Shown here in pieces: positions 8,540 to 56,457 of a stretch of 64,000 nt of DNA. The position numbers and the translations under genes are program-made. Each line of letters starts with the position of its first letter. The first letter of the stretch is position 1. The DNA comes from an uncultured Chloroflexia bacterium. Its GTDB lineage: Bacteria; Chloroflexota; Chloroflexia; DTKN01. The notes under the pieces were generated by a model. The model was not told the origin of the DNA, did no database searches, and saw nothing but the letters and a program-made list of their open reading frames with translations. Where the stretch lies: the NCBI GenBank assembly GCA_964613665.1, contig CAZTIG010000018.1:2174-66173 (forward strand), written 5' to 3'.

Positions 8540-8568
8540 AGTATACCCGCTTTTCGGCCGGCTGTCAA
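8540..8568 (-). promoter_or_regulatory. consensus sigma-70 promoter for rpsU (and the downstream NYN gene)
   Basis: Minus strand reads TTGACA-N17-TATACT. Confidence 0.7.
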
Positions 8569-8583
8569 TCTCGCCTGGCTCAA

Positions 8584-8683
8584 AACCTATCACAACTACC
8601 AAAGGCACGGAGGCACGAAGAAAGGCAAGGAGGAACAGCCAAAAGGCTTCGCGTCTTTGTGCCCTTGTGGTTTGCGATAGGTT
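8584..8683 (-). terminator. long imperfect hairpin plus U4, candidate terminator of the znu operon
   Basis: Arms of about 25 nt (8584-8608 and 8659-8683) pair. On the minus strand the hairpin is followed by UUUUGAGCC. It lies directly after the permease stop. Confidence 0.4.
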
Positions 8684-8684
8684 C

Positions 8685-10381: not shown

Positions 10382-10449
10382 CGTGTGCTCCAACTGGCAC
10401 GGCCGGCGACATGGACTGCCCCGGGCCGTGCTGCTGCGGCCACCCCGTC

Positions 10450-29459: not shown

Positions 29460-29825
29460 ATGACCACAGAAATCCGAGAGTTGCTGGGCTCGTTCCGTTC
29501 CTTGAACGGCGTCTCGCTCGCTGCCGTGGTCGCGACCGACGGCCTGCTGATCGAAGGGGTGGCCGATCCCGACGTGGACATGGACGCCATCTGCGCGGTG
29601 GCCTCCAATGGCCTGGTCATGGCCGAGGCCCTGGGGCGCGAGATCGGCAAGGGCGGCACCACTCAGGCCGTCCTGGAGTACGACAGCGGCCTGGTCATCC
29701 TGGAGCCGTTGAGCGAGGATGCGATGGTGCTCATCGTCTCCAGCCAGCGCAACAGCCTGGGCCGCGTCCGCTTCATGCTGAACCGCTACCATCAGTCCCT
29801 GTTCGATGCGGTGAACGCCATCTGA
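29460..29825 (+). CDS. Roadblock/LC7 (MglB-like) protein
   Basis: LNGVSLAAVVATDGLLIEG...VLEYDSGLVILEPL...MVLIVSS. AAGGAGG lies before the ATG. Confidence 0.85.
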   Translation: MTTEIRELLGSFRSLNGVSLAAVVATDGLLIEGVADPDVDMDAICAVASNGLVMAEALGREIGKGGTTQAVLEYDSGLVILEPLSEDAMVLIVSSQRNSLGRVRFMLNRYHQSLFDAVNAI

Positions 29826-29890
29826 GTCCATTTGCACCTACCGGATCGCCCGCGGTTGCTCCACCGGCAGGCAAGTGGTGAGGGAAAAGC

Positions 29891-30385
29891 ATGGAACCTC
29901 AGCTGAGCAGTCTGATTGTCTCTCTGGAGGAAAAAGAGTCCATCGACGGGTGCCTGCACCGTCTGGTCGAGGACACGGGGGCCACGCACGCCATGCTCCT
30001 CGACAAGAGCGGGCAGGTAATCGCCAGCTATGGACAGGTCGAACGACAGGACACCACCGCCCTGGGGGCGCTCCTGGCGGGGACCTTTGCCTCGTCGCGC
30101 GAGGTGGCGCGGCTCCTGAGGGAGAGGGATTTCCGCGTCCTGTTCCAGCAGGGCATCCGCGAGAACATCTTCACCGCTCTGGTCGAAGAGCAATGGATGC
30201 TGGCCATCGTGTTCGATAAGGGAACGCACATCGGCCTGGTCAAGGTCCTGACCAAGAAGGCCACCGAGGAGCTGGAGGCCATCCTGGAGCGCGTGCGCCA
30301 GGAAGGGAAGCTACGCGACGAGGTGATCAGCACCAGCTTCCGCACGTCGATGGAGGACACCATCGACCTCCTCTTCCGCGACTGA
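29891..30385 (+). CDS. second Roadblock/LC7-like protein with a C-terminal helical extension
   Basis: GATHAMLLDKSGQVIASYG...ALGALLAGTFASS...MLAIVFDK fits the Roadblock fold pattern. Confidence 0.7.
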   Translation: MEPQLSSLIVSLEEKESIDGCLHRLVEDTGATHAMLLDKSGQVIASYGQVERQDTTALGALLAGTFASSREVARLLRERDFRVLFQQGIRENIFTALVEEQWMLAIVFDKGTHIGLVKVLTKKATEELEAILERVRQEGKLRDEVISTSFRTSMEDTIDLLFRD

Positions 30386-30447
30386 CCCGGGCCGACGACG
30401 CGTGTCCGCGCAGATGGCGAGCATCTGTGACGTAAAGTGAGGCCAGC

Positions 30448-31038
30448 ATGGCGTTAATCAACATCGCGGCGAGGGAAATCCACTGCAAGATCGTCTACTA
30501 CGGCCCTGGCCTGAGCGGGAAGACGACCAACCTGAAGTACATCCACAGCCAGGTGCCGAAGGAGGCCAAAGGGGAGCTTCTTTCCATCGCCACCGAGACA
30601 GAGCGCACGCTCTTCTTCGATTTCCTCCCCCTGGACCTGGGACGAGTACGCGGTTTCCAGACCCGCTTTCACCTGTACACCGTCCCTGGGCAGGTGCTCT
30701 ACGAGCGCACCCGCGTTGCCGTGTTGAATGGAGCGGACGGCGTCGTATTCGTGGCCGACTCGCAGCGCAACAAGCTGGAGGAGAACGTCCGCAGCCTTCA
30801 GGAGCTGGCCCGCAACATCACCCGCCAGGGGAAGCGTTTCGCCGAGTTCCCGGTCATTCTGCAGTACAACAAGCGAGACCTGCCCAACGCTCTGCAAGTG
30901 GCGGTCCTCGACCGCTACCTGCGCTACCGCACCAGCGATGGCAACCTGGTCGAGCGCTTTGAGGCGGTCGCTTCCTCCGGCAGGGGAGTTTTCGACACCT
31001 TGAAGTCGATCAGCAAACTGGTGATCAGCAAGCTCTGA
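30448..31038 (+). CDS. mglA: Ras-like small GTPase MglA
   Basis: REIHCKIVYYGPGLSGKTTNLKYI...TLFFDFLP...RFHLYTVPGQV...LQYNKRDLPNA...VFDTLKSISKLV is near-colinear with the Myxococcus/Thermus MglA I recall. Confidence 0.92.
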   Translation: MALINIAAREIHCKIVYYGPGLSGKTTNLKYIHSQVPKEAKGELLSIATETERTLFFDFLPLDLGRVRGFQTRFHLYTVPGQVLYERTRVAVLNGADGVVFVADSQRNKLEENVRSLQELARNITRQGKRFAEFPVILQYNKRDLPNALQVAVLDRYLRYRTSDGNLVERFEAVASSGRGVFDTLKSISKLVISKL

Positions 31039-31064
31039 GCCCTCCCCAAGGTGCTTGAGGAAGA

Positions 31065-31895
31065 ATGCCCCTTCAAGGCGATCTCAGCGAATTCAGCCTG
31101 GCGGACATCATCCAGCTGGTCGACCTGAGCAAGCAGACTGGAGCCGTTCACATTGTCGGGGAACTCGAGGAGAAGGATGTCGAGGGGTGGATCTACTTCC
31201 GGAATGGACAGGCAATCTCGGCTCGGCTGGGCCGGCTAGCACCGCTGGAGGCGCTCTACTCCCTCTTCACCCTACCGGCGGGCTCCTTCATATTCGAAGA
31301 AGGGGTCGACCTGCCCGTACGGGAGATCCATGCCAGCAACGAGATGCTGATCATGGAGGGCATCCGCCGTGTGGACGAGTGGAATGCCCTGAAGGGCAAG
31401 GCTCCGCCCATGGACACCGTGCTGGGCCTGGTGACCACGACCGACGAGTATCGCCAGGAGATCAGCCTCGAGCCGGAGGAGTGGCGGGTCCTCACGCTGG
31501 TGGACGGCCGAAACACGGCGGCCGACATCGCCGATCGCAGTGGCCTGGGCGAGTTCCGCACGCGCCAGATCATCGTCAGCCTGCTGGAAGCCGGCCTGGT
31601 CGAGAAGAGAGAGGTTCGCGTCGGCGAGCGCCTATTCGAGGAGCTGGGGCGCATCGCCGTGGAGAGCCTGGGGCACTCGGCCCGCGTGCTGCTGGAGGAT
31701 GCCTTCAAGCGCCAGGGGCTCCAGCCGAAGGGCGAGGCCTCCCCAGAACAGATCCTGGCTGTCTGCACCGGATTCGAGCGCTCCATCTCCCTGCTGGTCG
31801 GTCCGTCGCGGGCCCACCGGCTCGTGGAGGATATGCGCCTGCGCGCGCGCCAGATCTTTGGCGAGGGCGTCTGGGATAGCGCCGTCCGGAAGTGA
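31065..31895 (+). CDS. DUF4388 domain protein (PatA-N-like) with a winged-helix-like C-terminus
   Basis: MPLQGDLSEFSLADIIQLV...IMEGIRRVDEW...EEWRVLTLVDGRNTAADIADRSGLGEFRTRQIIVSLLEAGLV. Paralog of 50184-51002. Confidence 0.8.
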   Translation: MPLQGDLSEFSLADIIQLVDLSKQTGAVHIVGELEEKDVEGWIYFRNGQAISARLGRLAPLEALYSLFTLPAGSFIFEEGVDLPVREIHASNEMLIMEGIRRVDEWNALKGKAPPMDTVLGLVTTTDEYRQEISLEPEEWRVLTLVDGRNTAADIADRSGLGEFRTRQIIVSLLEAGLVEKREVRVGERLFEELGRIAVESLGHSARVLLEDAFKRQGLQPKGEASPEQILAVCTGFERSISLLVGPSRAHRLVEDMRLRARQIFGEGVWDSAVRK

Positions 31896-37571: not shown

Positions 37572-37594
37572 GGCGTCCCTCGCCACAGGCACAC

Positions 37595-37791
37595 GAAAAC
37601 CCCACCATGCCGTAAGCTGGCCAAGTTCTAAACCGAGAGTCCACTCTCGGGGGAGCCGGTGTGGCGGTCCCGCGTTCCCGGGTCAGGTCCCGCCTGCCTG
37701 GTGTACGCAGCCCCGCCAGGGACTGGTTCCCAACGTAACCGGTGTTGGCTCAGAACTCTACTGCCAGCAGTACGCACACGGCAGGGTTTCT
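37595..37791 (-). ncRNA. rod-shaped structured RNA candidate: 6S-like on the minus strand (alternative: SRP/4.5S-like RNA on the plus strand)
   Basis: The 5' and 3' ends pair (37595-37613 with 37778-37790), and further helices are 37616-20/37764-68 and 37624-29/37752-57. There are two local hairpins and an apical domain. The minus-strand promoter places +1 at the base of the stem. The plus strand carries GGUCAGGUCC...GCAGCC. Confidence 0.4.
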
Positions 37792-46051: not shown

Positions 46052-46147
46052 GTGGCAATCGCGAAGCGGCACGGCCACAAAAGTCGCCGGCCTTGACCGG
46101 CAAGTGCCCGGCCCCGGCAACGACACGACGCCGCCTATGCAGGGGCG

Positions 46148-46399: not shown

Positions 46400-46816
46400 T
46401 CAGCCGTGCAGCGCGGCGCGGACGCGCGCGGCCACCGCATCCAGCGGCTCCGCGTTGCGCGCCAGCTGTCCCCGCGCCAGGGGTAGGCCGTCGCCATACC
46501 AGCGCGGGATCAGGTGCACGTGCAGGTGCGGAACCACCTGGCCGGCAGCGCGCCCGTTGTTCTGCAGCACGGCGAGGCCGTCCGGCTGCAGCGCCTGCCG
46601 CAGCGCGCGGCCTACCCGCGCAACCAGCTCCATCAGCACGGCCCCCGTCTCTTCATCGATCTCCCAGATGGCTTGCCAGTGCACCCGCGGGATCACCAGG
46701 GTGTGCCCGGGCGCGGCCGGCTGCACGTCGAGAAAGGCGAGGGCGGCCTCCTCTTGGCAGAGGATCTCGGCCGGGGCCCGCCCGGCGGCGATGGCGCAGA
46801 AGATGCAGTCCTCCAT
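46400..46816 (-). CDS. HIT-family (histidine triad) protein
   Basis: CIFCAI...PGHTLVIP...VPHLHVHLIP. Confidence 0.9.
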   Translation of the reverse strand: MEDCIFCAIAAGRAPAEILCQEEAALAFLDVQPAAPGHTLVIPRVHWQAIWEIDEETGAVLMELVARVGRALRQALQPDGLAVLQNNGRAAGQVVPHLHVHLIPRWYGDGLPLARGQLARNAEPLDAVAARVRAALHG

Positions 46817-46829: not shown

Positions 46830-47375
46830 CTAGGCCACTTTCCGCGGGTGGATCCACTCCGAGACCCAGCGGTAGCGAAAGTCCTTGCCGTCGAGCACGT
46901 GGAGTGCCCCGACGCAGCCGTAGATCAGGCTGCCCACGGTCACCACGGCGGTGAGCGCCGAGATGCCCAGCGCCAGCGGCAGCAGGCAGAAGCCGACCCC
47001 GATGAACATCAGCGGGATCGTCACAAGCCACAGGATGCCCGTGATGATCCCCAGCACCAGCCCTACCAGCATGGCCAGCCCCTGGAAGACGAACGCCTGC
47101 AGGGCGTGCCAGGACACGTACTCTGACTTTTTCTCGTACAAGAAGCTCAGGACCAGCGCCAGGACGGGGCCACCGATGCCGGTGATCAGGTTGAGGAGGA
47201 TCCCGCCATGGGCCAGCGCCGCGACCCGGCGCTCCTCGGCAGTCAGGCGCGGCACAGCCTCCAGCGCCACGGCGGGCTCTGCCAGCACCGGCAAGTCGCC
47301 TGCCGGCGGCACTGGTCCGGGCGGGGCCGGCTCCGCCTGCAGCACGGGAGCCTCGTCCTTTCTCTTTCGCGGCAT
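46830..47375 (-). CDS. DUF4870-like membrane protein
   Basis: Pro-rich N-terminus, then AALAHGGILLNLITGIGGPVLALVLS...SWHALQAFVFQ. ATG 47375 lies 5 nt after AGGAGGG and is preferred over ATG 47396. Confidence 0.6.
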   Translation of the reverse strand: MPRKRKDEAPVLQAEPAPPGPVPPAGDLPVLAEPAVALEAVPRLTAEERRVAALAHGGILLNLITGIGGPVLALVLSFLYEKKSEYVSWHALQAFVFQGLAMLVGLVLGIITGILWLVTIPLMFIGVGFCLLPLALGISALTAVVTVGSLIYGCVGALHVLDGKDFRYRWVSEWIHPRKVA

Positions 47376-47397
47376 CGTTTCCCTCCTGTTGCCCATG

Positions 47398-48348
47398 TCA
47401 GCGCCGGGAGGGGCCGACCACCTGGCTGCAGGTGCCCACGCGGCTCAGGACGACCGCCCCGACTCCGGCGCTGGCCAGCAGCACGGCACAGGCCGGCCCC
47501 CACCAGGGGGCGACCACGGCCGGCAGCACCGTCAGCACGACCAGGATGGCCAGGCCCAGCGCGGTGGACAACCCGGCCGGCAGAGCCTGCAGCCGCGCCC
47601 GCAGGGCCTCGCCCAACGCCATGCCGCCCACCGTCAGCCCGGCCAGGTACAGCAGCAGCACCGGCAGGACGAGCACCGGGACCAACACCACCCCCACCAC
47701 CGTGAGCAGGAGCAGCAGGAGCGCCACCGGGACGATTGCGGCCAGCAGGATGGTGCTGGCCACTCCCAGCCCCAGGCTCGGGAGAAACCGCCCCCGCAGT
47801 GTCTCCACCACGGCCTGGCTGCGCCGCGGCCAACAGGCCCGCAGGCCCCAGGCCAGCAGCAGGCACAGGCCCAGCGCCACGGCCGCGGCCAGCGCGGCGC
47901 CGCCCAGCTGAGCCCACAGCGAGGCCTCCGGACGGTCGTATACGCTTTCCCACCCCGCCACGGCCGGCCCGCCCACGAGCACGCCGCCGCGGACGGCGCT
48001 GCCCGCCTCCATGTGCAGCAGGCCGCCCAGGACGCTCACGTCCCCGGCGACCTGCGCGCGGCCCTGCAGCAGAACCTCGCCGGCCAGGCTGACCACGTCC
48101 CCCTCCACCTGGCCGCTGACCCAGACCGATCCGCCGATAGCAACGGCGCTTCCGCCGACCCGCCCGCGCACGACGACATCCCCGCCGATGGCGACAGCAT
48201 CGCCGGCACATGACTCGCCCGCGGGGACGATCACATCCTGGCCCACGCGGATGCACTGCGGACCCTGGGCCAGGGCCGGCCGGACCAGGAGGAAGGCCCC
48301 CCCGAGCACGGCCACAGCGATGGCAGCAGCGACCACGATCCGCGGCAT
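47398..48348 (-). CDS. bactofilin-repeat (polymer-forming cytoskeletal-like) domain fused to a polytopic membrane domain
   Basis: Signal/TM segment, then GDAVAIGGDVVVRGRVGGSAVAIGGSVWVSGQVEGDVVSLAGEVLLQG beta-helix repeats, then about 5 TM helices. ATG 48348 follows GGAGGA. Confidence 0.65.
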   Translation of the reverse strand: MPRIVVAAAIAVAVLGGAFLLVRPALAQGPQCIRVGQDVIVPAGESCAGDAVAIGGDVVVRGRVGGSAVAIGGSVWVSGQVEGDVVSLAGEVLLQGRAQVAGDVSVLGGLLHMEAGSAVRGGVLVGGPAVAGWESVYDRPEASLWAQLGGAALAAAVALGLCLLLAWGLRACWPRRSQAVVETLRGRFLPSLGLGVASTILLAAIVPVALLLLLLTVVGVVLVPVLVLPVLLLYLAGLTVGGMALGEALRARLQALPAGLSTALGLAILVVLTVLPAVVAPWWGPACAVLLASAGVGAVVLSRVGTCSQVVGPSRR

Positions 48349-48367
48349 CCGTTCCTCCGCGATCCGC

Positions 48368-48931
48368 TCAGAGAGAGCCGCTGCGAGGGGCGCTACGGCG
48401 CCACAGCCACACCCACAGCAGCGCGGCGGCGGCCACGGCCAGCCCGGAGACGGCCAGCCAAGGCCAGCGCAGGCCCTGCCACAGCGCGCCCAGCACGTGG
48501 CCCAGCGCGCCGAGGAGCTGCGGGACATCGCCCCATCCCGCGGCGGCGATCTCCTTTCCTCCCTGCCGCAGGAGCAGCCAGTCTTCCTGCCCGGGCTGCA
48601 GGCCCAGGAGGGCCGTCAGCGCGGCCAGCCCCACAAAGAGCAGCACCATCCCGGCCAGCACCGCCTGGCTGGCCCGCGTCCAGATCGGCACAGGGAGGGC
48701 CAGCGATCGACGGTCCGCGGGGAGACGCGCCAGCACCCTGGCCGAAAGGCCGGCCGGCGGGTCCAGCCACTGGGGGCGGCCCAGGACATCGTGAGCGCGG
48801 CGCATGGCGGCCCAGGTAGCCCGGCAGCGGGCACACCGCTCCAGGTGCCGGGAGAGGCGGGCTAGCTCCTGGGGAGGCAGTCCTCCATCGAGCTGCAGCG
48901 ACATCAGGCTGCTGGCCGCACGACAGCGCAT
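48368..48931 (-). CDS. anti-sigma factor (zf-HC2 type) with TM segments
   Basis: MRCRAASSL...LSRHLERCARC is the H-x3-C-x2-C motif. An alternative start at ATG 48904 forms TGATG with the sigma stop. Confidence 0.7.
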   Translation of the reverse strand: MRCRAASSLMSLQLDGGLPPQELARLSRHLERCARCRATWAAMRRAHDVLGRPQWLDPPAGLSARVLARLPADRRSLALPVPIWTRASQAVLAGMVLLFVGLAALTALLGLQPGQEDWLLLRQGGKEIAAAGWGDVPQLLGALGHVLGALWQGLRWPWLAVSGLAVAAAALLWVWLWRRSAPRSGSL

Positions 48932-49482
48932 CGCTCTTCTTCCTCTTGCATCGCCCGGGCCAGCATGTTGCGTGCCCGGTGCAGCCGCGTCTTGACCGTG
49001 TTCAGCGACAGGCCGGCCGCGGCAGCAATCTCCTCATATGACAGGTCGTACCAGTAGCGCAACACGACGACCACCCGGTACTTGTCGGGCAGGCGCTGCA
49101 AGAGCCGCTGGAGCTGGGCGGACTCCTCCGCGCGCAATACCCCGCTCGAAGGCTCCTCCACGTCCGCCGCCAGCCGGAACGAGACGTCCTCCAGCGACAT
49201 CCAGGCATATCGCCGCCGGCGCAGGATATCCACGCACAGGTTGGAGGCGATCGCCAGGAGCCAGGAGGAGAACTTCCGGCCCAACTGGAAGGACGGGAGG
49301 GCCGCATAGGCCCGCAGAAAGGACTCCTGCGCAGCGTCCTCGGCATCTTCGGCATTCCCCAGCAGGCGGTAGGCCAGGTTGTACACCTGCCGCTGGTAGC
49401 GACAGACTAGCTGTGCAAAGGCCGGCTGGTCGCCCTGCAACGCCTGCAAGATCCAGATTTGTTCTTCCTGCGCTGGATCCAT
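48904..49482 (-). CDS. ECF-type RNA polymerase sigma factor
   Basis: Region 2 (YRYQRQVYNLAYRLLGNAEDAEDAAQESFLRAY) and region 4 (LSYEEIAAAAGLSLNTVKTRLHRAR). Confidence 0.9.
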   Translation of the reverse strand: MDPAQEEQIWILQALQGDQPAFAQLVCRYQRQVYNLAYRLLGNAEDAEDAAQESFLRAYAALPSFQLGRKFSSWLLAIASNLCVDILRRRRYAWMSLEDVSFRLAADVEEPSSGVLRAEESAQLQRLLQRLPDKYRVVVVLRYWYDLSYEEIAAAAGLSLNTVKTRLHRARNMLARAMQEEEERCAVVRPAA

Positions 49483-49497
49483 CGCCGTTACTCTCTG

Positions 49498-49524
49498 ATT
49501 ACGGAGATACGGGAGGAATGTTCC
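49498..49524 (-). promoter_or_regulatory. ECF-type promoter-like motif in front of the sigma gene
   Basis: Minus strand reads GGAAC-N16-CGTAAT in the 54-nt gap between the GTPase stop and the sigma ATG. It would leave a very short leader. Confidence 0.3.
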
Positions 49525-49536
49525 GTGAGGAAGGCG

Positions 49537-50070
49537 CTATCCTTCCTCGGCCTCCTGCAGAACCAGGTAGAGCAGTTCCAGCAGAACCGCCTTGACGCTG
49601 TCGCGGCGGGTGGCTGCACAGGGCAGCACCTTGATGGTCTCGGGCAGGCGCAGCGCCAGGCGCAGCTCTTCCGGGGACCAGGCATTGTCCAGGTCCTGCT
49701 TGTTGGCCACGATGAGATAGGGGCTCTCGCGGTAGGAGGTGAAAAAGTCGACGATGCGCAGCGTCTCGCGGAACGTCTCCGGCCGGGTGCTGTCCACCAG
49801 GATGAGCAGCCCCAGCATGCCCTCGGAGAGAATCTCCCACATGAAGTCAAAGCGCTTCTGGCCCGGCGTGCCAAAGAGGTGCAGCACCAGATCGTTGGCG
49901 ATGGTGATGCGGCCAAAGTCCATGGCCACGGTCGTCTCCGCCTTGATCTGGCTGACCTCGTCGGTCGAGCGGCGTTCGGTGGAAACGACCTCGATCTCGC
50001 TGATGGTGCGGATGAACTGGGTCTTGCCAGAGTTCACCGCTCCGGTGATGACCATCTTGACCGTCTTCAC
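49537..50070 (-). CDS. small Ras-like GTPase (COG2229/CvnD-like ATP/GTP-binding protein)
   Basis: P-loop GAVNSGKT, switch II FGTPGQ, NKQD. GTG 50070 lies 8 nt after GGGAGGAG. Confidence 0.8.
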   Translation of the reverse strand: MKTVKMVITGAVNSGKTQFIRTISEIEVVSTERRSTDEVSQIKAETTVAMDFGRITIANDLVLHLFGTPGQKRFDFMWEILSEGMLGLLILVDSTRPETFRETLRIVDFFTSYRESPYLIVANKQDLDNAWSPEELRLALRLPETIKVLPCAATRRDSVKAVLLELLYLVLQEAEEG

Positions 50071-50183
50071 CTACCCAGCTCCTCCCGGCAGCCGGACAAC
50101 GACGGCAGTGCGTAGATCGGGTGGCAAGGCGAGCGCCAAGGCCACCAGGTTAGCGGTTTGACAGCGCCCCGGTCCAAGGGGAA

Positions 50184-51002
50184 CTACATCCCTCGAATCC
50201 GCTCGATGATCCGGTTGATGAGGCTGCGCTTGGGGCGCTCAACCGGGACCGGGGCGCTAACCCCAGGGGGGGGTGAAGGTTTCTCCTTCACCAGTTCCAC
50301 CAGGCCGGCCGAGATAAAGCCATAGATGATCCGGCAGACCTCGAATTCGCCCAGGCCGGTGCGCTCGGAGATCGTGCGCACCGCGTCCTTGCCGTTGATG
50401 CGGGCAAAGACGCGCCACTCGTCGGGCGTCAGGTTGACCCCCTTGGCGCGCTCGCTGGGCTGGTCCACGAACTTGACCACCACCTCGGTGCTGGGGATGC
50501 GATCGCGGATGCGGCTCCACTCGTCAATGCGCCGCACGCCCTCCATGATGATGTTCTCTACCCCCAGTGGGAGCGTGATCATCACGTCGCCCGGGGCCAC
50601 CAGCACGCCGGCGTCGAAGCGGAACTCCCCGTCCGCCCAGGTGAAGAGGCGATAGACCGTCTCCTCGATCTGGGTACGGACGTGCCGCCGCAGCTCCTCG
50701 TCCGCCACGTAGCCGAGGTCGACCAGGACGGCGCCCAGCGGCTTGCCGGCATAGGGTCCCTGCTGGAGATGCACGGCGTGATCGCGCTGTTCGCTGGTGA
50801 TGCGGCCGACCCGCACCAGCATCTCCCCCAGGCGCTCCTCGCGGCTGTACTGGGTGGCATAGACCAGCTTGCCCTTTTCAAAGTACAGCGTGGCGGCGTC
50901 GTCGGAGCGCTTGAGGGTCAGCCGGCCTGTCTTGTAGCCGCGGTCGACCAGGTAGAGAAAGTCCGCCAGGTTAAAGTCGCGCAGGTTGCCAACCAGTGCC
51001 AT
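50184..51002 (-). CDS. DUF4388 domain protein with an inserted tandem MshEN-like motif
   Basis: MALVGNLRDFNLADFLYLV. The insert has RLGEMLVRVGRITSEQRDHAVHLQ and PLGAVLVDLGYVADEELRRHVRTQ. The C-terminus is paralogous to 31065-31895 (IMEGVRRIDEW...DEWRVFARINGKDAVRTISERTGLGEFEV). Confidence 0.8.
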   Translation of the reverse strand: MALVGNLRDFNLADFLYLVDRGYKTGRLTLKRSDDAATLYFEKGKLVYATQYSREERLGEMLVRVGRITSEQRDHAVHLQQGPYAGKPLGAVLVDLGYVADEELRRHVRTQIEETVYRLFTWADGEFRFDAGVLVAPGDVMITLPLGVENIIMEGVRRIDEWSRIRDRIPSTEVVVKFVDQPSERAKGVNLTPDEWRVFARINGKDAVRTISERTGLGEFEVCRIIYGFISAGLVELVKEKPSPPPGVSAPVPVERPKRSLINRIIERIRGM

Positions 51003-51040
51003 GGGCACCCCCCTGTTGGGTAAGGTTTGCCAGTGGTTCT

Positions 51041-51069
51041 ATTATACTTGCTTCGGGGCACTACGTCAA
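51041..51069 (-). promoter_or_regulatory. sigma-70 promoter for the DUF4388-GTPase cluster
   Basis: Minus strand reads TTGACG-N17-TATAAT. Confidence 0.6.
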
Positions 51070-52326: not shown

Positions 52327-52891
52327 GACAATCGAGGTCAGCATCCACAAGTTCGAGGCCCAGAGCTACGACCTCTACCTGTCGCCTCCCTTCGGATCGT
52401 TCATCCGCGTGGCCAGCACCGCCCCCGGCGTCGAGATCTATGCCGTCGTCGAGGAGATCCGTAGCGGGCCCATCGACGCCTCGCGGCCGGTGGTGGCCCG
52501 CGGGGCCGACCTGGCCAGCGAGGAGGCGATCTACCAGGAGAACCCCCACTTTCAGCACGTCATGCGCACCAGCTTCTCGGCCGTGGTGGTCGGCTACGTC
52601 CAGGACGGCCGGCCGCTGCACATGCTGCCGCCGCAGCCACCGCGCATCCACGGCTTTGTGCACGCGTGCGCGCCCGAGGAGATCGCCGCCTTCACCCAGC
52701 GTTTCGGCTTCCTGCGCCTGCTCAAGGCGGCCCAGGCCTCCAACGACCTGCTGTCGGCCTGCGTGCGCGGCGCGGCGGCGGCGCGCGCCGGCGAGGCCGG
52801 CTACCTGGTGGAGGCCGGGAAGGAGCTCATGGTCCTCCTGGCCGACGACCCGGAAAGGCTGAATGTGCTGCTGCCGCTGCTGCAGGGCTGA
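52307..52891 (+). CDS. hypothetical protein
   Basis: The 194-aa ORF overlaps the previous gene by 20 nt and has coding-like composition. I recognise no motif. Confidence 0.5.
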   Translation: MAQRVGETIEVSIHKFEAQSYDLYLSPPFGSFIRVASTAPGVEIYAVVEEIRSGPIDASRPVVARGADLASEEAIYQENPHFQHVMRTSFSAVVVGYVQDGRPLHMLPPQPPRIHGFVHACAPEEIAAFTQRFGFLRLLKAAQASNDLLSACVRGAAAARAGEAGYLVEAGKELMVLLADDPERLNVLLPLLQG

Positions 52892-52911
52892 GAGACACCA
52901 GAGCGCCGCCA

Positions 52912-55900
52912 ATGGGAACGAGAGGCCGACAGAAGCGTGAAGGCGTGCCCCCAGCCGGCCGCCGGTGCGGCGGCCGACTGGGCATGGCCGCCCTGCTGCT
53001 GCTGGCGCTGGCCGCCTGTGCCCCCCCCGCTACGCCCCCGCCCACGGCCGCGCCCGCCTCCCCCACGGCGGAACCGACCCCGATCTCCACGCCCCCGCCG
53101 CCCCCGCGCGTCACCACCACCCCAGGGCCGCCGACGACGCCGCCCGCGCCGTTGGGCCTGGTGCGCCTATGGCGCACCGCCACCGGGGACACCGTCTGGG
53201 ACCTCGTCGCCGCCGACATCGCCGGCGACGGCCGGCCGGAGGTGTGGGCGGCCTCCTACGACCACAGCCTCTACCTGATCACCGCCACCGGCGGGATCAG
53301 TTGGTCCGTGCCCAGCCCCGGCCCGCTCTACGCCGCCGCGCCGGCCGACCTGGACGGTGACGGCCGCCCCGAGCTCCTCATCGGCGGCGACGGCAATGTC
53401 GTCCAGGCCGTCTCCCGCGCCGGCGCCACGCTCTGGTCCTATCGGGCCGGCAGCCGCGTCACCCACCTGGCGGCCGGCGACGTCGACGGCGATGGCCAGG
53501 TCGAGGCACTGGCGGCGACGTGGGATGGCATCCTGCACGTCATTGCCGCGGACGGCACGCTGCGGCGGCGCGTTGCCTTGGAAAGCGAATCCACCGCCCT
53601 GGCCACGGCCGATGTCGACGGCGACCGCTTCCCGGAGATCCTCGTCGGTACCGCGGCCGGTCAGGTGCTGGCCCTGACGGGCGGCGGCACGCTCCTGTGG
53701 CAACAGGGGCTGACGGGAGCTGTACGCGCGCTCCTGCCGGGCGACCTGGACGGCGACCGCCGCGAGGACGTGCTGGTGGGCTGCCGTGACGGGATGGTGG
53801 CGCTGATCGGGCTGGACGGCGAGCCCCGCTGGGCCCAGCGGGCCGGTGACACCATCGTCAGCCTGGCCGGCCTGGGGGCGCGCCGCCTCGTCTTCCTGGG
53901 ACTGGCCCACGGCATCGCCGCACTGGACGCGACCAGCGGTCTCCTCCAGTGGTCGCAGGCCACCCCCCAGGGCGTCTGGAGCCTGCTCATCTTGGGCCTG
54001 GCCGATCCGGTCCTGGCTGCCGGAACCGACGGCGGGCAGATCTACCTGCTCAACATGCACGGTCAGGTGCGCGGCGTCACCGCCCTGCCCTCGCGCGTGC
54101 GCGGGTTGACCAGCGCCGACCTGGACCGCGACGGCCGGCCCGACCTGCTGGCGCACGCCGGCGATTATGTCTACGCCTTTCGCACCGACCCCCAGGGCGA
54201 GGCCGGTGAGCCGGCGCCCACCGTGACGACGCTGCCGCGCTGGCCCTCGCCCTCGCCGCTGGCAGCCCCACCCGAGGGCCGCATCGCCCTGGCTGCCGTG
54301 GGCGACGTCATGCTGGGCCGCAGCATCGAGGAGCGCATGGAGGCCTATGGCACCGACTACCCCTTCCAGGCGCTGGCGCCGCTCCTGCGCCAGGCCGACA
54401 TCACGGTGGGCAACCTGGAGAGCGTCCTGTCCCAGGGCGGGGAACCGGCAGCCAAGATGTTTGTCTTTCGCGGCCATCCGCGGATGGCCGCCGGCCTGGC
54501 CGAGGCCGGCTTCGACGTGCTCAACCTGGCCAATAACCACATCCTCGACTATGGCGCGGAAGGCGTCACCGAGACGTTGGCCGCGCTCGAGGGGCAAGGC
54601 GTGCACGGCATCGGGGCCGGGCCACAGGCCGCCGATCCCGTGGTGGTGGAGGCCCGCGGCATCCGCGTGGCCTTCCTGGCCCGCAACATCGCCGGGCCGG
54701 CCCAGACCGGCGTCGCCGCCGTGCCCGACGAGGCGACCCTGCGGCGCGACGTCTGGCAGGCCCGCAAGCAGGTCGACGCGCTGGTCCTGCTGCTGCACAC
54801 CGGCACCGACTACGACGACCAGCCCACGCCGCAGCAGCGCGCTCTGGCCCGCACGGCCGTCGAGGCCGGCGCCGACCTGGTCATCGGCTACCACCGCTAC
54901 CTGGTCCAGGACACCGAGCAGTACGGCCGCGGCTTTATCGCCTACGGCCTGGGCGACTTTTCCTTCGACATCGACATCGTCGACGAGGCACGCGACGGCG
55001 CCGTGCTGTGGGTGCTGCTGAGCAAGGACGGCGTCGCCCAGGTGGACTGGATCCCCACGCGCACTGTGGATGACGTGCAGCCGCGCGCCCGGCCGGCCCC
55101 CGGCGGGCGCGTGGAGATGGCCAGCCTGCTGGTCCAGGCCGGCGAACCGCTGGCCGCGCCGCCGGCCCCGCGGCCCAGCTACATCCTGGCCGCCAGCGCG
55201 GCCACGGCGACCGGGCCCGTCTCGGTCCAGCAGACGGTCGTGTTCCCCAACACCACGGGCGACTCCCTGAACGACCTGTACTTCTTCGTCTTCCCCAACG
55301 CGCTCCCGGGCGCCTTTGCCCTGGGCACGGTGCAGGTCCAACAGGAGCGGACCTATGTCCCCTCCTATGTGCTCGCCGACACGACGCTGCACCTCTTCCT
55401 CGGCGCGCCGCTGGCCCCGGGCGGCGCGCTCACGGTGACCATGGCCTATACTCTCTCGCCGCCGACGATCGACCCGGCCGCCCTGCCCCCGGCCGGCGTT
55501 CTGGGGCACAGCGCCGACGGCCGCGCGCTGAACCTGGGCCACTGGTACCCGCAGCTGGTGCCCTACCTGCACGGCTATGGCTGGCAGACGTGGGAGTACC
55601 ACGCGGTGGGCGATCCGTTCTACGCCGACCTGGCGGACTATCGCCTCACCGTCGATGTGCCGGCCGGCTACAGCGCCTTTGGCGCCGGCGAGCGCGGTCA
55701 GGAGGGCACGCGCTGGCGCTTCTCGCTGGACGCGGTGCGAGATTTCGCCCTGGTGATCGGGCGGGACTATGCCCAGGAGAGCGGCCAGTTCGGCGGGGTC
55801 ACCGTGCGCTCCGTCTACCGGCCGGAGCATGCCGCGGCCGGCCGTGCCGTGCTGGACGACACGCTGCGGGCACTGCAGCTCTTCCAGGAACGCTACGGCC

Positions 55901-56457
55901 CCTACCCGGCGCCCACCTTCACCGTCGTCGAGAGCGATATGGGCGGAGCCCAGGAGTACGGCCACATGGCCGTTCTGGGGTCCCGCTTCTACGACTCGTA
56001 CGAGGGGCTCCCGACAGCGACGCTGCCCGGCCTGACCGTCCACGAGCTGGCCCACCAGTGGTGGTACAACGTCGTCGGGAACGACGGTGTGCGCGAGCCG
56101 TGGCTGGACGAGGCCCTGGCTACCTACAGCGAGCTCGTCTACTACGAGCACGTCTACAGCACCGCGGTGGGCTGGTGGTGGGAGCAGCGTGACCGCTGGG
56201 CGCCGCGCGGGCCGGTCGATACCTCCATCTACGACTTTGCCGACACCGCCACCTACATCCACAACCTGTACGGCCAGGCGGCGCACTTTCTGCAAGACCT
56301 GCGCGCCCAGATGGGCGACGAGCCCTTCTTCTCCTTCCTGCAGCGTTACTACCGCGACAACACCTGGCGGCGGGCCACGCGGCGCGACTTTTTCCGGGCG
56401 CTGACCGCGGCCGGGGTGGAGGTGGAAGAGCTGGTCCAGGTGTATTTCCAGCAGTAG
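52912..56457 (+). CDS. large lipoprotein: FG-GAP/VCBS-like propeller + CapA (PGA_cap) metallophosphatase-like domain + M1-type zinc peptidase domain
   Basis: Lipobox LALAAC and a Pro/Thr linker. DxDGDG repeats (DLDGDGRPELLIG, DVDGDGQVE, DVDGDRFPE, DLDGDRRED, DLDRDGRPD). The CapA-like block is VGDVMLGR...GNLES...NLANNH. The M1 peptidase motif is HELAHQWW-x-E (HExxH-X18-E). The start could also be ATG 52984. Confidence 0.8.
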   Translation: MGTRGRQKREGVPPAGRRCGGRLGMAALLLLALAACAPPATPPPTAAPASPTAEPTPISTPPPPPRVTTTPGPPTTPPAPLGLVRLWRTATGDTVWDLVAADIAGDGRPEVWAASYDHSLYLITATGGISWSVPSPGPLYAAAPADLDGDGRPELLIGGDGNVVQAVSRAGATLWSYRAGSRVTHLAAGDVDGDGQVEALAATWDGILHVIAADGTLRRRVALESESTALATADVDGDRFPEILVGTAAGQVLALTGGGTLLWQQGLTGAVRALLPGDLDGDRREDVLVGCRDGMVALIGLDGEPRWAQRAGDTIVSLAGLGARRLVFLGLAHGIAALDATSGLLQWSQATPQGVWSLLILGLADPVLAAGTDGGQIYLLNMHGQVRGVTALPSRVRGLTSADLDRDGRPDLLAHAGDYVYAFRTDPQGEAGEPAPTVTTLPRWPSPSPLAAPPEGRIALAAVGDVMLGRSIEERMEAYGTDYPFQALAPLLRQADITVGNLESVLSQGGEPAAKMFVFRGHPRMAAGLAEAGFDVLNLANNHILDYGAEGVTETLAALEGQGVHGIGAGPQAADPVVVEARGIRVAFLARNIAGPAQTGVAAVPDEATLRRDVWQARKQVDALVLLLHTGTDYDDQPTPQQRALARTAVEAGADLVIGYHRYLVQDTEQYGRGFIAYGLGDFSFDIDIVDEARDGAVLWVLLSKDGVAQVDWIPTRTVDDVQPRARPAPGGRVEMASLLVQAGEPLAAPPAPRPSYILAASAATATGPVSVQQTVVFPNTTGDSLNDLYFFVFPNALPGAFALGTVQVQQERTYVPSYVLADTTLHLFLGAPLAPGGALTVTMAYTLSPPTIDPAALPPAGVLGHSADGRALNLGHWYPQLVPYLHGYGWQTWEYHAVGDPFYADLADYRLTVDVPAGYSAFGAGERGQEGTRWRFSLDAVRDFALVIGRDYAQESGQFGGVTVRSVYRPEHAAAGRAVLDDTLRALQLFQERYGPYPAPTFTVVESDMGGAQEYGHMAVLGSRFYDSYEGLPTATLPGLTVHELAHQWWYNVVGNDGVREPWLDEALATYSELVYYEHVYSTAVGWWWEQRDRWAPRGPVDTSIYDFADTATYIHNLYGQAAHFLQDLRAQMGDEPFFSFLQRYYRDNTWRRATRRDFFRALTAAGVEVEELVQVYFQQ

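What the first reader, a model, noticed from the sequence alone, without database searches (positions are those of the whole stretch)
46830..51069. Second DUF4388 + small GTPase pair heading an ECF sigma / anti-sigma / bactofilin-repeat membrane protein cluster
On the minus strand, a consensus promoter (TTGACG-N17-TATAAT, 51041-51069) is followed without strand change by seven genes:
- a DUF4388 paralog (50184-51002)
- a CvnD/COG2229-like small GTPase (49537-50070)
- an ECF sigma factor (48904-49482)
- a zf-HC2 anti-sigma factor (48368-48931), overlapping the sigma gene
- a protein with bactofilin-like beta-helix repeats fused to about 5 TM helices (47398-48348, 19 nt gap)
- a DUF4870 membrane protein (46830-47375)
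- a HIT protein

The two DUF4388 proteins in this window share a clearly homologous C-terminal half: IMEG(I/V)RR(V/I)DEW ... (E/D)EWRV ... GLGEF ... AGLVE.

A Ras-like GTPase and a DUF4388 protein placed directly upstream of a sigma/anti-sigma pair suggests GTPase-gated control of an extracytoplasmic-function regulon. This would be analogous to, but differently built from, the actinobacterial conservons (sensor, Roadblock, DUF742, GTPase). I am not aware of a described system with this composition.
Basis: partly seen in the sequence, partly recalled or inferred. Interest (0 to 1): 0.75.

Follow-up and report, generated by a model that had tools for sequence, protein, structure and literature searches.

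The report
GTPase switch beside ECF sigma module
The seven genes are real, but they are two ordinary, separately conserved modules (a PATAN/small-GTPase switch and a self-regulated stress sigma factor with its membrane partners) that lie side by side only in one narrow lineage of Chloroflexia, and nothing shows that the GTPase controls the sigma factor.

Summary
Every gene, the sigma-70-type promoter and the paralogy of the two DUF4388 (PATAN) proteins are confirmed.

**Module 1: PATAN + GTPase.**
- The GTPase has GTPGQ, a TT G2 region and NKQD. This fits MglA family Group 5 (Wuichet & Sogaard-Andersen 2014), not the conservon protein CvnD.
- A PATAN gene sits directly upstream in 43 of 44 assessable Chloroflexota loci.
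- In Actinomycetota MAGs the order is Roadblock-PATAN-GTPase-PilB.
- The link between PATAN and MglA-like genes is already published.

**Module 2: SigW-like ECF sigma, zf-HC2 anti-sigma and a beta-helix membrane protein.**
- It has its own conserved ECF-type promoter (GGAAC-N16-CGTA, 49524-49500).
- Related sigma genes lack the pair in 36 of 36 metagenome loci with enough upstream sequence.

**Where the two modules are adjacent.**
- They are adjacent only in the window's own lineage (GTPase 82-89% identical, where full-length).
- There the block is kept in at least six distinct sequenced loci, while the gene upstream of it differs in every locus.
- None of about 41 loci outside the lineage shows the linkage, including two with GTPases 80% identical.

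**Verdict.** This is a lineage-specific cluster of two known kinds. Read-through transcription is the only coupling the sequence supports. GTPase gating of the sigma factor is possible but unsupported (about 10%). Interest is modest.

The parts
51041..51069 (-). sigma-70-type promoter TTGACG-N17-TATAAT upstream of the PATAN gene
   Evidence: It is an 11/12 match. Shuffles of the region give a mean of 0.1 such sites in total, against 2 found. The same TTGACG...TATAAT sequence is conserved upstream of the PATAN orthologue in L086, L088, L089 and L093.
50184..51002 (-). PATAN (DUF4388/PatA_N) protein, 272 aa. It has a PATAN core with a two-repeat alpha-clip insertion (residues ~48-111), a winged-helix domain (~175-238), a Pro-rich disordered linker and a C-terminal amphipathic helix (259-271).
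   Evidence: - Pfam PF14332, 119.5 bits.
- The insertion matches the PilF/PilB/MshE N-termini (6f8l, E 7e-9) and NCBIfam NF053729 'c-di-GMP_motif' (38.9 bits, cutoff 38).
- The winged helix gives only marginal hits to TrmB here, and to MarR and DUF742 for the paralogue PATAN_A.
- AF2 model, pLDDT 83.
- The C-terminal helix is conserved in GTPase-linked PATAN proteins of five phyla.
49537..50070 (-). small Ras-superfamily GTPase of the MglA family with Group 5-type motifs (GAVNSGKT, ETTVAMDF, GTPGQ, NKQD), 177 aa
   Evidence: - Pfam ATP_bind_1, Arf and Ras.
- It is 70-89% identical across Chloroflexota.
- Motif comparison against the group definitions in PMC4316618.
- The closest solved bacterial relative is MglA, among Asgard Arf-type GTPases that score equally weakly (E 1e-7 to 3e-7).
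49500..49524 (-). ECF-type promoter GGAAC-N16-CGTA in the 54-nt gap between the GTPase and the sigma gene (probable autoregulatory promoter)
   Evidence: It is read directly from the sequence. The motif is kept 30-55 nt upstream of the sigma start codon in L086/L087, L088, L089 and L093, although the gaps differ in length (about 50 to 166 nt) and in sequence. The window has only one other match, and that lies inside the 6S RNA gene.
48904..49482 (-). ECF (group 4) sigma factor, SigW-like, 192 aa
   Evidence: - Sigma70_r2 and Sigma70_r4_2.
- Best PDB match is B. subtilis SigW, E 1e-37.
- Best NCBIfam matches are the SigW models, at 162 and 156 bits, below their equivalog cutoffs of 209 and 243.
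48368..48931 (-). membrane anti-sigma factor with an N-terminal zf-HC2 anti-sigma domain (H29-x3-C33-x2-C36) and two predicted TM segments. It overlaps the sigma gene by 28 nt.
   Evidence: - Pfam zf-HC2, 38.8 bits.
- NCBIfam anti-sigma models.
- Hydropathy segments at 86-114 and 156-177.
- The same 28-nt overlap occurs in L086 and L088.
47398..48348 (-). membrane protein, 316 aa: an N-terminal signal/anchor helix, an extracytoplasmic bactofilin-like beta-helix (32-126) and a helical membrane domain (142-309)
   Evidence: - AF2 model, pLDDT 81.
- Hydropathy.
- Homologues carry PF26514/DUF8173, and some carry bactofilin PF04519.
- Foldseek match to T. thermophilus bactofilin 6ria: probability 0.87 but E 0.33.
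46830..47375 (-). DUF4870 / MamF_MmsF-family membrane protein, 181 aa
   Evidence: Pfam PF09685, 50.8 bits. It follows the beta-helix protein in L086-L089 and L173 but not in L093. One distant homologue (P0160) is annotated by JGI as a bactofilin/Tic20-family fusion.
46400..46816 (-). HIT-family protein. It is a variable end of the block, present in the window and L173 only.
   Evidence: Pfam HIT, 93 bits. It is absent after DUF4870 in L086-L089 and present in L173.
46084..46103 (-). terminator-like hairpin plus T-run, about 300 nt after HIT and just upstream of the nrdR promoter-like site (46051-46023). It is a possible end of the transcription unit.
   Evidence: Pattern scan only. The count of such sites is not above the chance expectation for the region.
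29463..31895 (+). context: the 'first pair', made of two Roadblock/MglB-like genes, a Group 1-type MglA (RT in G2, TVPGQ, NKRD) and a PATAN protein without the alpha-clip insertion or the C-terminal helix
   Evidence: ORFs and Pfam. Motifs. Alignment and C-termini.

Best explanation
Two autonomous and individually ordinary modules lie head to tail, and only in this lineage.

**Module 1 (51069-49537).** It is transcribed from a strong sigma-70-type promoter and encodes a cytoplasmic small-GTPase switch.
- The GTPase is an MglA-family Group 5-type protein. It has no intrinsic arginine finger, so it presumably needs a Roadblock-type GAP encoded elsewhere.
- Its fixed partner is a PATAN adaptor protein. 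The PATAN alpha-clip insertion is homologous to the c-di-GMP-binding N-terminus of type IV pilus ATPases. The protein also has a winged-helix domain and a conserved C-terminal amphipathic helix.
- By analogy with MglA/MglB and with cyanobacterial PATAN regulators that bind PilB/PilC, the pair most likely controls the placement or activity of surface-motility or pilus machinery, perhaps in response to c-di-GMP. This step is inferred.

**Module 2 (49524-46830, with HIT to 46400).** It is a conventional envelope-stress ECF unit.
- A SigW-like sigma factor is held by a zinc-finger transmembrane anti-sigma factor.
- After release, it activates its own GGAAC-N16-CGTA promoter.
- It is co-expressed with a beta-helix membrane protein and a DUF4870 membrane protein.

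**Coupling.** The only coupling the sequence supports is possible read-through from the upstream promoter, because no terminator is detected in the 54-nt gap. This would give basal sigma/anti-sigma expression. The adjacency arose once in a narrow Chloroflexia lineage and has been kept there.
For: **The pair is autonomous.**
- PATAN lies immediately upstream of the GTPase in 34 of 34 Chloroflexota genome loci with GTPase at least 59% identical. The same holds in Herpetosiphon, Chloroploca and others.
- None of these loci has an ECF gene within 8 kb.
- The ancestral Chloroflexia context is MnmA-x-x-(DUF1385)-PATAN-GTPase.
- Six Actinomycetota MAG loci read Roadblock-PATAN-GTPase-PilB.
- Literature: PATAN binds PilB1/PilC, and mglA/mglB genes are often near PATAN genes.

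**The sigma module is autonomous.**
- 36 of 36 loci with an ECF 42-60% identical and enough upstream sequence lack the pair. 13 of 34 loci with enough downstream sequence carry a beta-helix membrane protein.
- It has its own promoter, conserved in all five related sequences (four of them distinct) despite dissimilar gaps.
- It has a complete sigma/anti-sigma pair, SigW/RsiW-like.

**No specialisation of the pair.** Motifs and domain architecture in the linked lineage are the same as in unlinked orthologues.
Against: - Within the lineage the junction between the GTPase and the ECF gene is kept in every sequenced locus (window, L086/L087, L088, L089, L093, L173). Meanwhile the gene upstream of the block differs in all six and the downstream gene in three ways. 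That looks like selection for keeping the two modules together.
- All genes are on one strand with short gaps and no detectable terminator between the modules. They may therefore be one operon.
- The motility/pilus role of the pair is inferred. No pil gene lies near it in the window or in any Chloroflexota locus examined.
- No expression data exist.
Confidence: 0.6

Rival explanations
1. Shared-process operon without direct gating. In this lineage the switch and the ECF module act on the same envelope or surface structure, for example pilus or gliding machinery together with an envelope-stress response. They are kept together for co-expression, but the GTPase does not touch the sigma/anti-sigma pair.
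For: - The six-gene block survives rearrangement of both flanks in six loci.
- The genes share one strand, the gaps are about 50 to 166 nt, and the pattern scan finds no convincing terminator between the modules. The single hairpin match in the L088 gap overlaps the promoter motif itself.
- Both modules concern the cell envelope or surface (inference).
Against: - The linkage is confined to one narrow lineage. Its PATAN proteins are 80-92% identical to the window's, and the next relatives are at most 66%.
- The sigma gene has its own promoter.
- In L093 the linked GTPase has lost its G2 and G3 motifs while the sigma module looks intact.
Confidence: 0.22
2. The GTPase, with the PATAN protein, is a cytoplasmic input that gates the anti-sigma factor or the sigma factor, giving a GTP-controlled (and perhaps c-di-GMP-controlled) ECF regulon.
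For: - The adjacency is conserved within the lineage.
- The PATAN protein carries a winged helix and an MshEN-like c-di-GMP motif.
- The anti-sigma factor has a cytoplasmic N-terminal domain that a soluble partner could reach.
Against: - Orthologous pairs 73-80% (GTPase) and 48-61% (PATAN) identical work without any neighbouring ECF gene.
- Sigma genes 42-60% identical occur without the pair.
- No feature of the PATAN protein or the GTPase is specific to the linked lineage.
- A zf-HC2 transmembrane anti-sigma factor is a self-sufficient signalling route in characterised systems such as SigW/RsiW (established knowledge).
- The degenerate GTPase in the linked locus L093 argues against an essential catalytic role.
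Confidence: 0.1
3. The PATAN protein is a DNA-binding regulator that acts through its winged helix. Its activity is set by the GTPase, and it controls transcription of the adjacent ECF operon or other genes.
For: - A C-terminal winged-helix fold is predicted, with marginal hits to TrmB, MarR and HTH_27.
- Wuichet & Sogaard-Andersen proposed a REC-like plus wHTH partner for Group 3 MglA proteins.
Against: - The winged helix resembles DUF742/CvnC at least as well (hhalign probability 80%). That domain is regarded as a GTPase partner, not a DNA binder.
- No conserved operator-like repeat was noticed in the aligned intergenic regions.
- Cyanobacterial PATAN proteins act by protein-protein contact.
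Confidence: 0.05

Closest known systems
MglA-family Group 5 small GTPases with neighbouring PATAN genes (Wuichet & Sogaard-Andersen 2014, PMC4316618; Makarova et al. 2006)
   Same: - The GTPase has GTPGQ in G3, Thr-Thr instead of the Arg finger in G2, and a canonical NKxD G4.
- Group 5 is reported in Chloroflexi, often in the same genome as a Group 1 MglA, as is the case in this window.
- A PATAN gene is adjacent.
   Different: - The published association was called 'occasional'. Here it is near-universal in Chloroflexota and in a fixed order, with PATAN first.
- No Roadblock/MglB gene lies next to this pair.
- Placement in the Group 5 clade was judged from motifs and taxonomy only, not from a tree with the reference set.
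MglA/MglB polarity switch of Myxococcus and Thermus (Group 1), and cyanobacterial PatA-type PATAN-REC regulators that bind PilB1/PilC
   Same: All involve a small GTPase switch and/or a PATAN output domain. The alpha-clip insertion is shared with the N-termini of pilus ATPases. In Actinomycetota MAGs the homologous module lies next to pilB.
   Different: - There is no intrinsic Arg finger.
- The PATAN protein has no REC domain. It has a winged helix and a C-terminal helix instead.
- No pilus gene is nearby in Chloroflexota.
- The function has not been tested.
Actinobacterial conservon (CvnA histidine kinase, CvnB Roadblock, CvnC DUF742, CvnD GTPase)
   Same: The GTPase is 39-45% identical to CvnD and shares GTPGQ and the TT G2 region. 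The PATAN C-terminal winged helix resembles the DUF742 winged helix weakly (hhalign probability 80%, E 1.4e-5 over 54 columns).
   Different: - There is no kinase, no Roadblock and no separate DUF742 gene.
- G4 is NKQD, not NxFD.
- G5 lacks the DAR motif.
SigW/RsiW of Bacillus subtilis (ECF sigma with a zinc-binding transmembrane anti-sigma factor, released by regulated proteolysis)
   Same: It is the best sequence match for the sigma factor (PDB 5wuq, E 1e-37). The anti-sigma factor has a zf-HC2 anti-sigma domain and membrane spans. The promoter type is an AAC-containing -35 element and a CGTA -10 element.
   Different: - The scores are below the NCBIfam SigW equivalog cutoffs (162 vs 209 bits).
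- The anti-sigma factor has two predicted TM segments and a short outside loop.
- The co-transcribed beta-helix and DUF4870 membrane proteins are not part of the Bacillus unit.
- The proteolytic cascade is not testable here.

Membership tests
MglA family, Group 5 (Wuichet & Sogaard-Andersen 2014) | G3 motif GTPGQ (Groups 2-5), as opposed to TVPGQ (Group 1) or DxxGQ (Ras) | tested here: met
   The window protein has LFGTPGQ, and 42 of 43 Chloroflexota orthologues have it too.
MglA family, Group 5 (Wuichet & Sogaard-Andersen 2014) | G2: a conserved Thr in place of the intrinsic Arg finger of Group 1 | tested here: met
   The window protein has ETTVAMDFG. The Group 1 paralogue in the window has the R-T pair, ETERTLFFDF.
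MglA family, Group 5 (Wuichet & Sogaard-Andersen 2014) | canonical G4 [NT]KxD (Groups 1, 4 and 5), unlike Groups 2 and 3 | tested here: met
   The window protein has NKQD.
MglA family, Group 5 (Wuichet & Sogaard-Andersen 2014) | placement inside the Group 5 clade in a tree with the reference sequences | not tested
   The reference set (supplementary table S2 of the paper) was not retrieved. The assignment rests on motifs and on the reported occurrence of Group 5 in Chloroflexi.
MglA family, Group 5 (Wuichet & Sogaard-Andersen 2014) | a coupled MglB/Roadblock partner | tested here: inconclusive
   No Roadblock gene is adjacent here. One follows the orthologous pair in L004, L006 and L015 and precedes it in the Actinomycetota, Aquificales and some cyanobacterial loci. 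Two Roadblock genes lie 18 kb away, with the Group 1 MglA.
Actinobacterial conservon (CvnABCD) | an adjacent CvnA-type histidine kinase | tested here: not met
   There is no kinase in the cluster or its flanks.
Actinobacterial conservon (CvnABCD) | adjacent Roadblock (CvnB) and DUF742 (CvnC) genes | tested here: not met
   Neither gene is present. The only DUF742 signal is a sub-threshold hit in the paralogue PATAN_A (E 0.05), and the PATAN C-terminal winged helix resembles the DUF742 winged helix weakly (hhalign probability 80%).
Actinobacterial conservon (CvnABCD) | CvnD-type G4 motif NxFD and G5 motif DAR | tested here: not met
   The window has NKQD and PCAAT. All 32 conservon GTPases fetched here have NxF[D/H/N], and those printed have DAR or DVR in G5.
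PATAN domain (PF14332) with alpha-helical insertion | a match to the domain model above its gathering score | tested here: met
   119.5 bits against a cutoff of 25, in two stretches split by the insertion.
PATAN domain (PF14332) with alpha-helical insertion | a two-repeat alpha-clip insertion homologous to the N-termini of T2SS/T4P ATPases | tested here: met
   - phmmer match to PilF 6f8l, E 6.8e-9, and weaker matches to MshE and PilB.
- Four helices at residues 58-120 in the AF2 model.
- The insertion is described in the literature.
PatA-type response regulator (PATAN-REC) | a C-terminal receiver domain | tested here: not met
   There is no Response_reg hit. The C-terminus is a winged helix, a linker and a helix.
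MshEN c-di-GMP-binding domain (Wang et al. 2016) | [quoted passage not shown] | tested here: inconclusive
   - NCBIfam NF053729 scores 38.9 bits against a cutoff of 38, over the full profile.
- Motif I, RLGEMLVRVGRITSEQRDHAVHLQ, keeps R, L, G, G and Q but has Arg at positions 11 and 17.
- Motif II fits the relaxed pattern.
- The spacer is 7 residues, not 5.
MshEN c-di-GMP-binding domain (Wang et al. 2016) | binding of c-di-GMP | not testable with these tools
   This needs ITC or DRaCALA with purified protein.
ECF (group 4) sigma factor with a class I anti-sigma factor | sigma regions 2 and 4 only, and an adjacent anti-sigma factor with an HxxxCxxC zinc-finger domain | tested here: met
   Sigma70_r2 and Sigma70_r4_2. 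zf-HC2 with H29, C33 and C36. The two genes overlap by 28 nt.
SigW (NCBIfam equivalogs NF007223, TIGR02948) | a score above the equivalog cutoff | tested here: not met
   162 bits against 209, and 155.8 bits against 243.1. The protein is SigW-like but not an SigW orthologue by the curated threshold.
Bactofilin (PF04519) | a match to the domain model, and a right-handed triangular beta-helix | tested here: inconclusive
   - The window protein has no Pfam hit even at E 10.
- Some distant homologues carry PF04519.
- AF2 predicts a beta-helix at residues 32-126.
- The Foldseek match to bactofilin 6ria has probability 0.87 but E 0.33.

The most novel reading that the evidence does not exclude
In this one Chloroflexia lineage, the ancient PATAN/Group 5 MglA switch has been recruited as a cytoplasmic input to a SigW-like ECF system. 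The switch may itself read c-di-GMP through the MshEN-like insertion of the PATAN protein. The GTPase state would then modulate the anti-sigma factor from the inside. This would be the first link from a small GTPase or c-di-GMP to an ECF sigma factor.
Probability: 0.1. Interest if true: 0.7.

Novelty: new member of a known kind. Interest (0 to 1): 0.3.

Why it matters
If the main reading holds, the finding adds little new. It is another instance of the published PATAN/MglA-like association next to a conventional ECF unit.

The comparative work does yield some useful points:
- The PATAN-GTPase pair is one of the most conserved uncharacterised two-gene modules of Chloroflexota. The GTPase is 70-89% identical among the closest database hits, which span several Chloroflexota lineages, and about 59-68% identical in Anaerolineae.
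- The PATAN partner has a fixed architecture: an alpha-clip/MshEN-like insertion, a winged helix and a C-terminal amphipathic helix.
- In Actinomycetota MAGs the module sits beside pilB.

Together these give concrete, testable hypotheses for the experimentally unexplored Group 5 MglA proteins: c-di-GMP input, docking through the C-terminal helix, and output to the pilus motor. The lineage-specific fusion with an ECF unit would matter only if a physical or regulatory link were demonstrated.

Tried and rejected
1. **Conservon membership: rejected.** The G4 and G5 motifs and the gene content do not fit.
2. **A hidden DUF742 gene between PATAN and the GTPase in Actinomycetota MAG loci: rejected.** The apparent gap is simply a longer PATAN protein.
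3. **Specific homology of the PATAN C-terminus to DUF742: left open.** hhalign gives probability 80%, but Pfam gives equally marginal hits to generic winged-helix families.
4. **ECF-type promoter motif as a family-wide feature: not found.** Only 2 of about 70 more distant ECF loci have it upstream. The motif is informative only within the close lineage.
5. **ECF regulon members in the window: none found.** The only other motif match lies inside the 6S RNA gene.
6. **pilB near the pair in Chloroflexota or in the window: none found.**
7. **Fold search of the PATAN model against the PDB: no significant match.** The best hits, to GATOR1 Nprl2/Nprl3, have E 0.08-0.5.
8. **Fold search of the beta-helix protein: only weak bactofilin and SV2A-type matches.**
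9. **Anti-phage defence models: no hits**, apart from a generic HIT-family match.
10. **The genome-contig scan hit its row limit.** It returned no Chloroflexia closer than 68%, so the close relatives had to be reached one by one through exact-protein look-ups.
11. **ECF group number (ECF Hub classification): not determined.** No such models were available.

Full report
**1. Observation**

Pfam confirms:
- a DUF4388/PATAN protein (50184-51002, PF14332, 119.5 bits);
- a small GTPase (49537-50070; ATP_bind_1, Arf, Ras);
- an ECF sigma factor (48904-49482);
- a zf-HC2 anti-sigma factor that overlaps it by 28 nt (48368-48931);
- a DUF4870/MamF_MmsF membrane protein (46830-47375);
- a HIT protein (46400-46816).

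The 316-aa protein at 47398-48348 has no Pfam hit of its own, even at E 10. Its homologues carry PF26514/DUF8173 and sometimes bactofilin PF04519. An AlphaFold2 model (pLDDT 81) shows an N-terminal helix, a beta-helix (residues 32-126) and six long, mostly hydrophobic helices over 142-309.

The promoter TTGACG-N17-TATAAT at 51069-51041 is an 11/12 match; shuffles give a mean of 0.1 such sites in the region, against 2 found. It is conserved upstream of the orthologous PATAN gene in four related loci.

The second PATAN protein of the window (31065-31895) is a true paralogue (E 1e-25). It belongs to a cluster of two Roadblock genes, an MglA-like GTPase and a PATAN gene at 29463-31895.

**2. What the first two genes are**

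The GTPase has a P-loop GAVNSGKT, a G2 region ETTVAMDF, a G3 motif GTPGQ and a G4 motif NKQD. In the classification of Wuichet & Sogaard-Andersen (PMC4316618):
- GTPGQ together with Thr in place of the intrinsic arginine finger marks MglA Groups 2-5;
- a canonical NKxD G4 separates Groups 1, 4 and 5 from the conservon Group 2, which has NxFD.

All 32 actinobacterial conservon GTPases fetched here have NxF[D/H/N], while 42 of 43 Chloroflexota PATAN-linked GTPases have NKQD. Group 5 is reported from Chloroflexi and often co-occurs with a Group 1 MglA. The window fits this, because its other GTPase (30448-31038) has the Group 1 hallmarks: an R-T pair in G2, TVPGQ and NKRD. The second GTPase is therefore best called a Group 5-type MglA homologue, not CvnD. 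Placement in a reference tree was not done.

The PATAN protein has a three-part build in its AF2 model (pLDDT 83):
- a PATAN core interrupted by four helices (residues 58-120);
- a winged helix (about 175-238);
- a disordered Pro-rich linker followed by a terminal helix (259-271).

The inserted helices are homologous to the N-termini of the pilus ATPases PilF, PilB and MshE (6f8l, E 6.8e-9). They just pass the curated NCBIfam model for the MshE-type c-di-GMP motif (38.9 bits against a cutoff of 38). Motif I deviates at two hydrophobic positions and the spacer is 7 residues rather than 5, so c-di-GMP binding is a hypothesis only. The homology of this insertion to pilus-ATPase N-termini is already in the literature.

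The terminal helix K(R/K)SL(I/V)xR(I/L)IxRIRG(M/L) is conserved in GTPase-linked PATAN proteins from Chloroflexota, Actinomycetota MAGs, Aquificales and Caldisericum, and in looser form in cyanobacteria. It is absent from the window's other PATAN protein.

**3. The pair elsewhere**

The GTPase is 70-89% identical among the 120 best database hits. These come from Herpetosiphon, Roseiflexaceae, Chloroflexaceae, Chlorohelix and unnamed Chloroflexota.
- In 34 of 34 Chloroflexota genome loci with a GTPase at least 59% identical, a PATAN gene lies immediately upstream.
- The same holds in Herpetosiphon aurantiacus, Chloroploca asiatica and other long contigs. In one locus (L091) the PATAN gene lies 1.3 kb away on the other strand.
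- A Roadblock gene sometimes follows the pair (L004, L006, L015).
- In MAGs of Actinomycetota and Aquificales and in some cyanobacterial loci, a Roadblock gene precedes the pair.
- In six Actinomycetota loci the order is Roadblock-PATAN-GTPase-PilB.

Published work states that PATAN genes lie near some Group 1 and Group 5 mglA genes and near mglB, and that cyanobacterial PATAN domains bind the pilus motor proteins PilB1 and PilC. The pair is thus a known kind of module, although no member of this group has been studied experimentally as far as the searched literature shows.

**4. The sigma module elsewhere**

The sigma factor is closest to B. subtilis SigW (PDB 5wuq, E 1e-37). NCBIfam SigW models score 162 and 156 bits, below their equivalog cutoffs. 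The anti-sigma factor has the HxxxCxxC zinc motif and two predicted membrane spans.

A metagenome scan with the sigma factor returned 80 loci.
- Of 36 loci with a sigma gene 42-60% identical and at least 1.5 kb of upstream sequence, none has a PATAN or GTPase gene.
- Of 34 loci with at least 2 kb downstream (one of them the linked L093), 13 have a beta-helix membrane protein like the one here within 2 kb.

The sigma/anti-sigma/beta-helix unit therefore exists on its own in many organisms.

**5. Where the two modules meet**

The ECF block follows the pair only in the closest relatives: L086/L087, L088, L089, L093 and L173. Matching longest-contig lengths of GTPase and beta-helix-protein hits suggest it does so on four more contigs as well. 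In these loci the GTPase is 82-89% identical where it aligns over its full length. L173's aligns over about 90% at 80%, and L093's is degenerate at 57%. PATAN identity is 79-92%, and the next PATAN relatives drop to 66% or less. The lineage consists of uncultured 'Chloroflexia bacterium' MAGs.

Loci with a GTPase 80% identical (L090, L174), and everything more distant, lack the ECF block.

Within the lineage the gene upstream of the block is different in every locus. The downstream neighbour is nrdR-purA, ASCH-FemAB, HIT-ferredoxin or transaldolase. The internal order is nevertheless invariant. This is the one real argument for a functional tie.

**6. Transcription signals**

The 54-nt gap between the GTPase and the sigma gene contains GGAAC-N16-CGTA (49524-49500), a typical ECF-type -35/-10 pair. 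The same motif sits 30-55 nt before the sigma start codon in L086/L087, L088, L089 and L093, although the gaps range from about 50 to 166 nt and are otherwise unalignable. The window has only one other match, and it lies inside a 6S RNA gene.

There are thus two conserved promoters: a housekeeping-type promoter for the pair and an autoregulatory type for the sigma block. No terminator-like element separates them in the window, so read-through is possible.

**7. Most likely mechanism**

*Shown.* There are two modules, each conserved without the other. Each has its own promoter-like element. The pair shows no lineage-specific change in sequence or architecture.

*Inferred.* The pair is a nucleotide switch whose PATAN partner may sense c-di-GMP and may dock on the GTPase or the membrane through its terminal helix. 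Its output is probably to surface-motility or pilus machinery. The sigma unit is an envelope-stress circuit released by proteolysis of the anti-sigma factor, as with SigW/RsiW. Read-through supplies basal expression. I give this reading 0.6.

The alternatives are:
- a shared-process operon without direct gating, 0.22;
- a DNA-binding role for the PATAN winged helix, 0.05.

The degenerate GTPase in the linked locus L093 (G2 RIPVDFG, G3 AVPAL) argues against an indispensable catalytic role for the GTPase in the sigma circuit.

**8. Comparison with known systems, and novelty**

- The GTPase meets the motif criteria of MglA Group 5. A tree was not made.
- It fails the conservon criteria: no kinase, no Roadblock gene, no DUF742 gene, and NKQD instead of NxFD.
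- The PATAN protein is a member of PF14332 with the known alpha-clip insertion. It is not a PatA-type response regulator, because it has no REC domain.
- The sigma factor is an ECF sigma factor of the SigW type, but below the equivalog thresholds.

Only the adjacency of the two modules seems undescribed, and it is confined to one narrow lineage. I therefore file the finding as a new member of known kinds, with modest interest (0.3). The residual novel reading, a small-GTPase or c-di-GMP input into an ECF system, has a probability of about 0.1. It would deserve about 0.7 if shown.

Noticed in passing
window 37595-37790 (-): A 6S RNA (SsrS) gene lies immediately upstream of holA (36600-37592): Rfam RF00013, 55.8 bits against a gathering score of 46.4, full-length match. 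The window's only other GGAAC-N15-18-CGTA match (37704-37730) lies inside it.
   Followed up: partly
window 50184-51002 (-), residues 57-111: The alpha-clip insertion of the PATAN protein just passes the curated NCBIfam model for the MshE-type c-di-GMP-binding motif (38.9 bits against a cutoff of 38). The leading Arg of motif I is kept in several Chloroflexia orthologues and replaced in the Anaerolineae orthologues. This suggests a c-di-GMP input into the GTPase switch in part of the phylum.
   Followed up: partly
window 50184-50225 (-) (PATAN residues 259-272); also the C-termini of PATAN genes in L001-L052, L086-L093: A C-terminal amphipathic helix, K(R/K)SL(I/V)xR(I/L)IxRIRG(M/L), follows a Pro-rich disordered linker of variable length. 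It is conserved in GTPase-linked PATAN proteins of five phyla and absent from the Group 1-associated paralogue at 31065-31895. It could be a GTPase-docking or membrane-targeting peptite-like element, by analogy with the MglB C-terminal helix (analogy recalled from memory, not tested).
   Followed up: partly
L036, L042, L043, L045, L048, L051 (Actinomycetota MAGs), about 6000-10500 in each: The conserved order is Roadblock, then a long PATAN protein (333-1130 aa), then a Group 5-like GTPase, then PilB-type pilus ATPase. Several of these GTPases have degenerate G4 motifs (LNR-AA, LNR-SS, and others).
   Followed up: partly
L093 5392-5946: In one ECF-linked relative the GTPase keeps the P-loop and NKQD but has lost G2 and G3 (RIPVDFG and AVPAL in place of TTVAMDFG and GTPGQ). 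It is a possible pseudo-GTPase. A response-regulator/GGDEF gene and a second ECF sigma gene lie upstream on the other strand.
   Followed up: partly
window 29463-31895 (+): A classical MglA/MglB-type cluster is present: two Roadblock genes, a Group 1 MglA (RT in G2, TVPGQ) and a PATAN-winged-helix protein without the alpha-clip insertion. It is followed by a Lamin-tail-domain membrane protein (32002-33063).
   Followed up: partly
window 50150-50183 (-) and the same position in L086, L088, L089: A short conserved GC hairpin (CCCC...GGGGCGCT, followed by T-rich sequence in L086 and L088) lies directly after the PATAN stop codon. It might attenuate transcription into the GTPase gene.
   Followed up: no
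PATAN_B model m481732da108e (window 50184-51002): The best Foldseek hits, none significant (E 0.08-0.5), are the Nprl2/Nprl3-type subunits of GATOR1/SEA. From memory, these are longin plus winged-helix GAP components for Rag GTPases. This is a lead that PATAN plus a winged helix may be a GTPase-regulator architecture.
   Followed up: no
window 52666-56457 (+): A 1263-aa ORF combines FG-GAP/beta-propeller repeats, a PGA_cap (CapA) domain and a peptidase M1 domain. This is an unusual fusion. The ORF may start later than the listed GTG.
   Followed up: no
protein P0160 (homologue of window 47398-48348): JGI annotates a distant homologue as a fusion of a bactofilin-family domain with a Tic20-family membrane domain. 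If that domain is DUF4870-like, it would tie the beta-helix protein functionally to the DUF4870 protein next to it.
   Followed up: no
L001-L003, L090, L092 (Chloroflexia): The apparent ancestral context of the pair is mnmA, then two small unknown ORFs, then DUF1385 (present in some loci), then PATAN and the GTPase. This context has been lost in the ECF-linked lineage.
   Followed up: no
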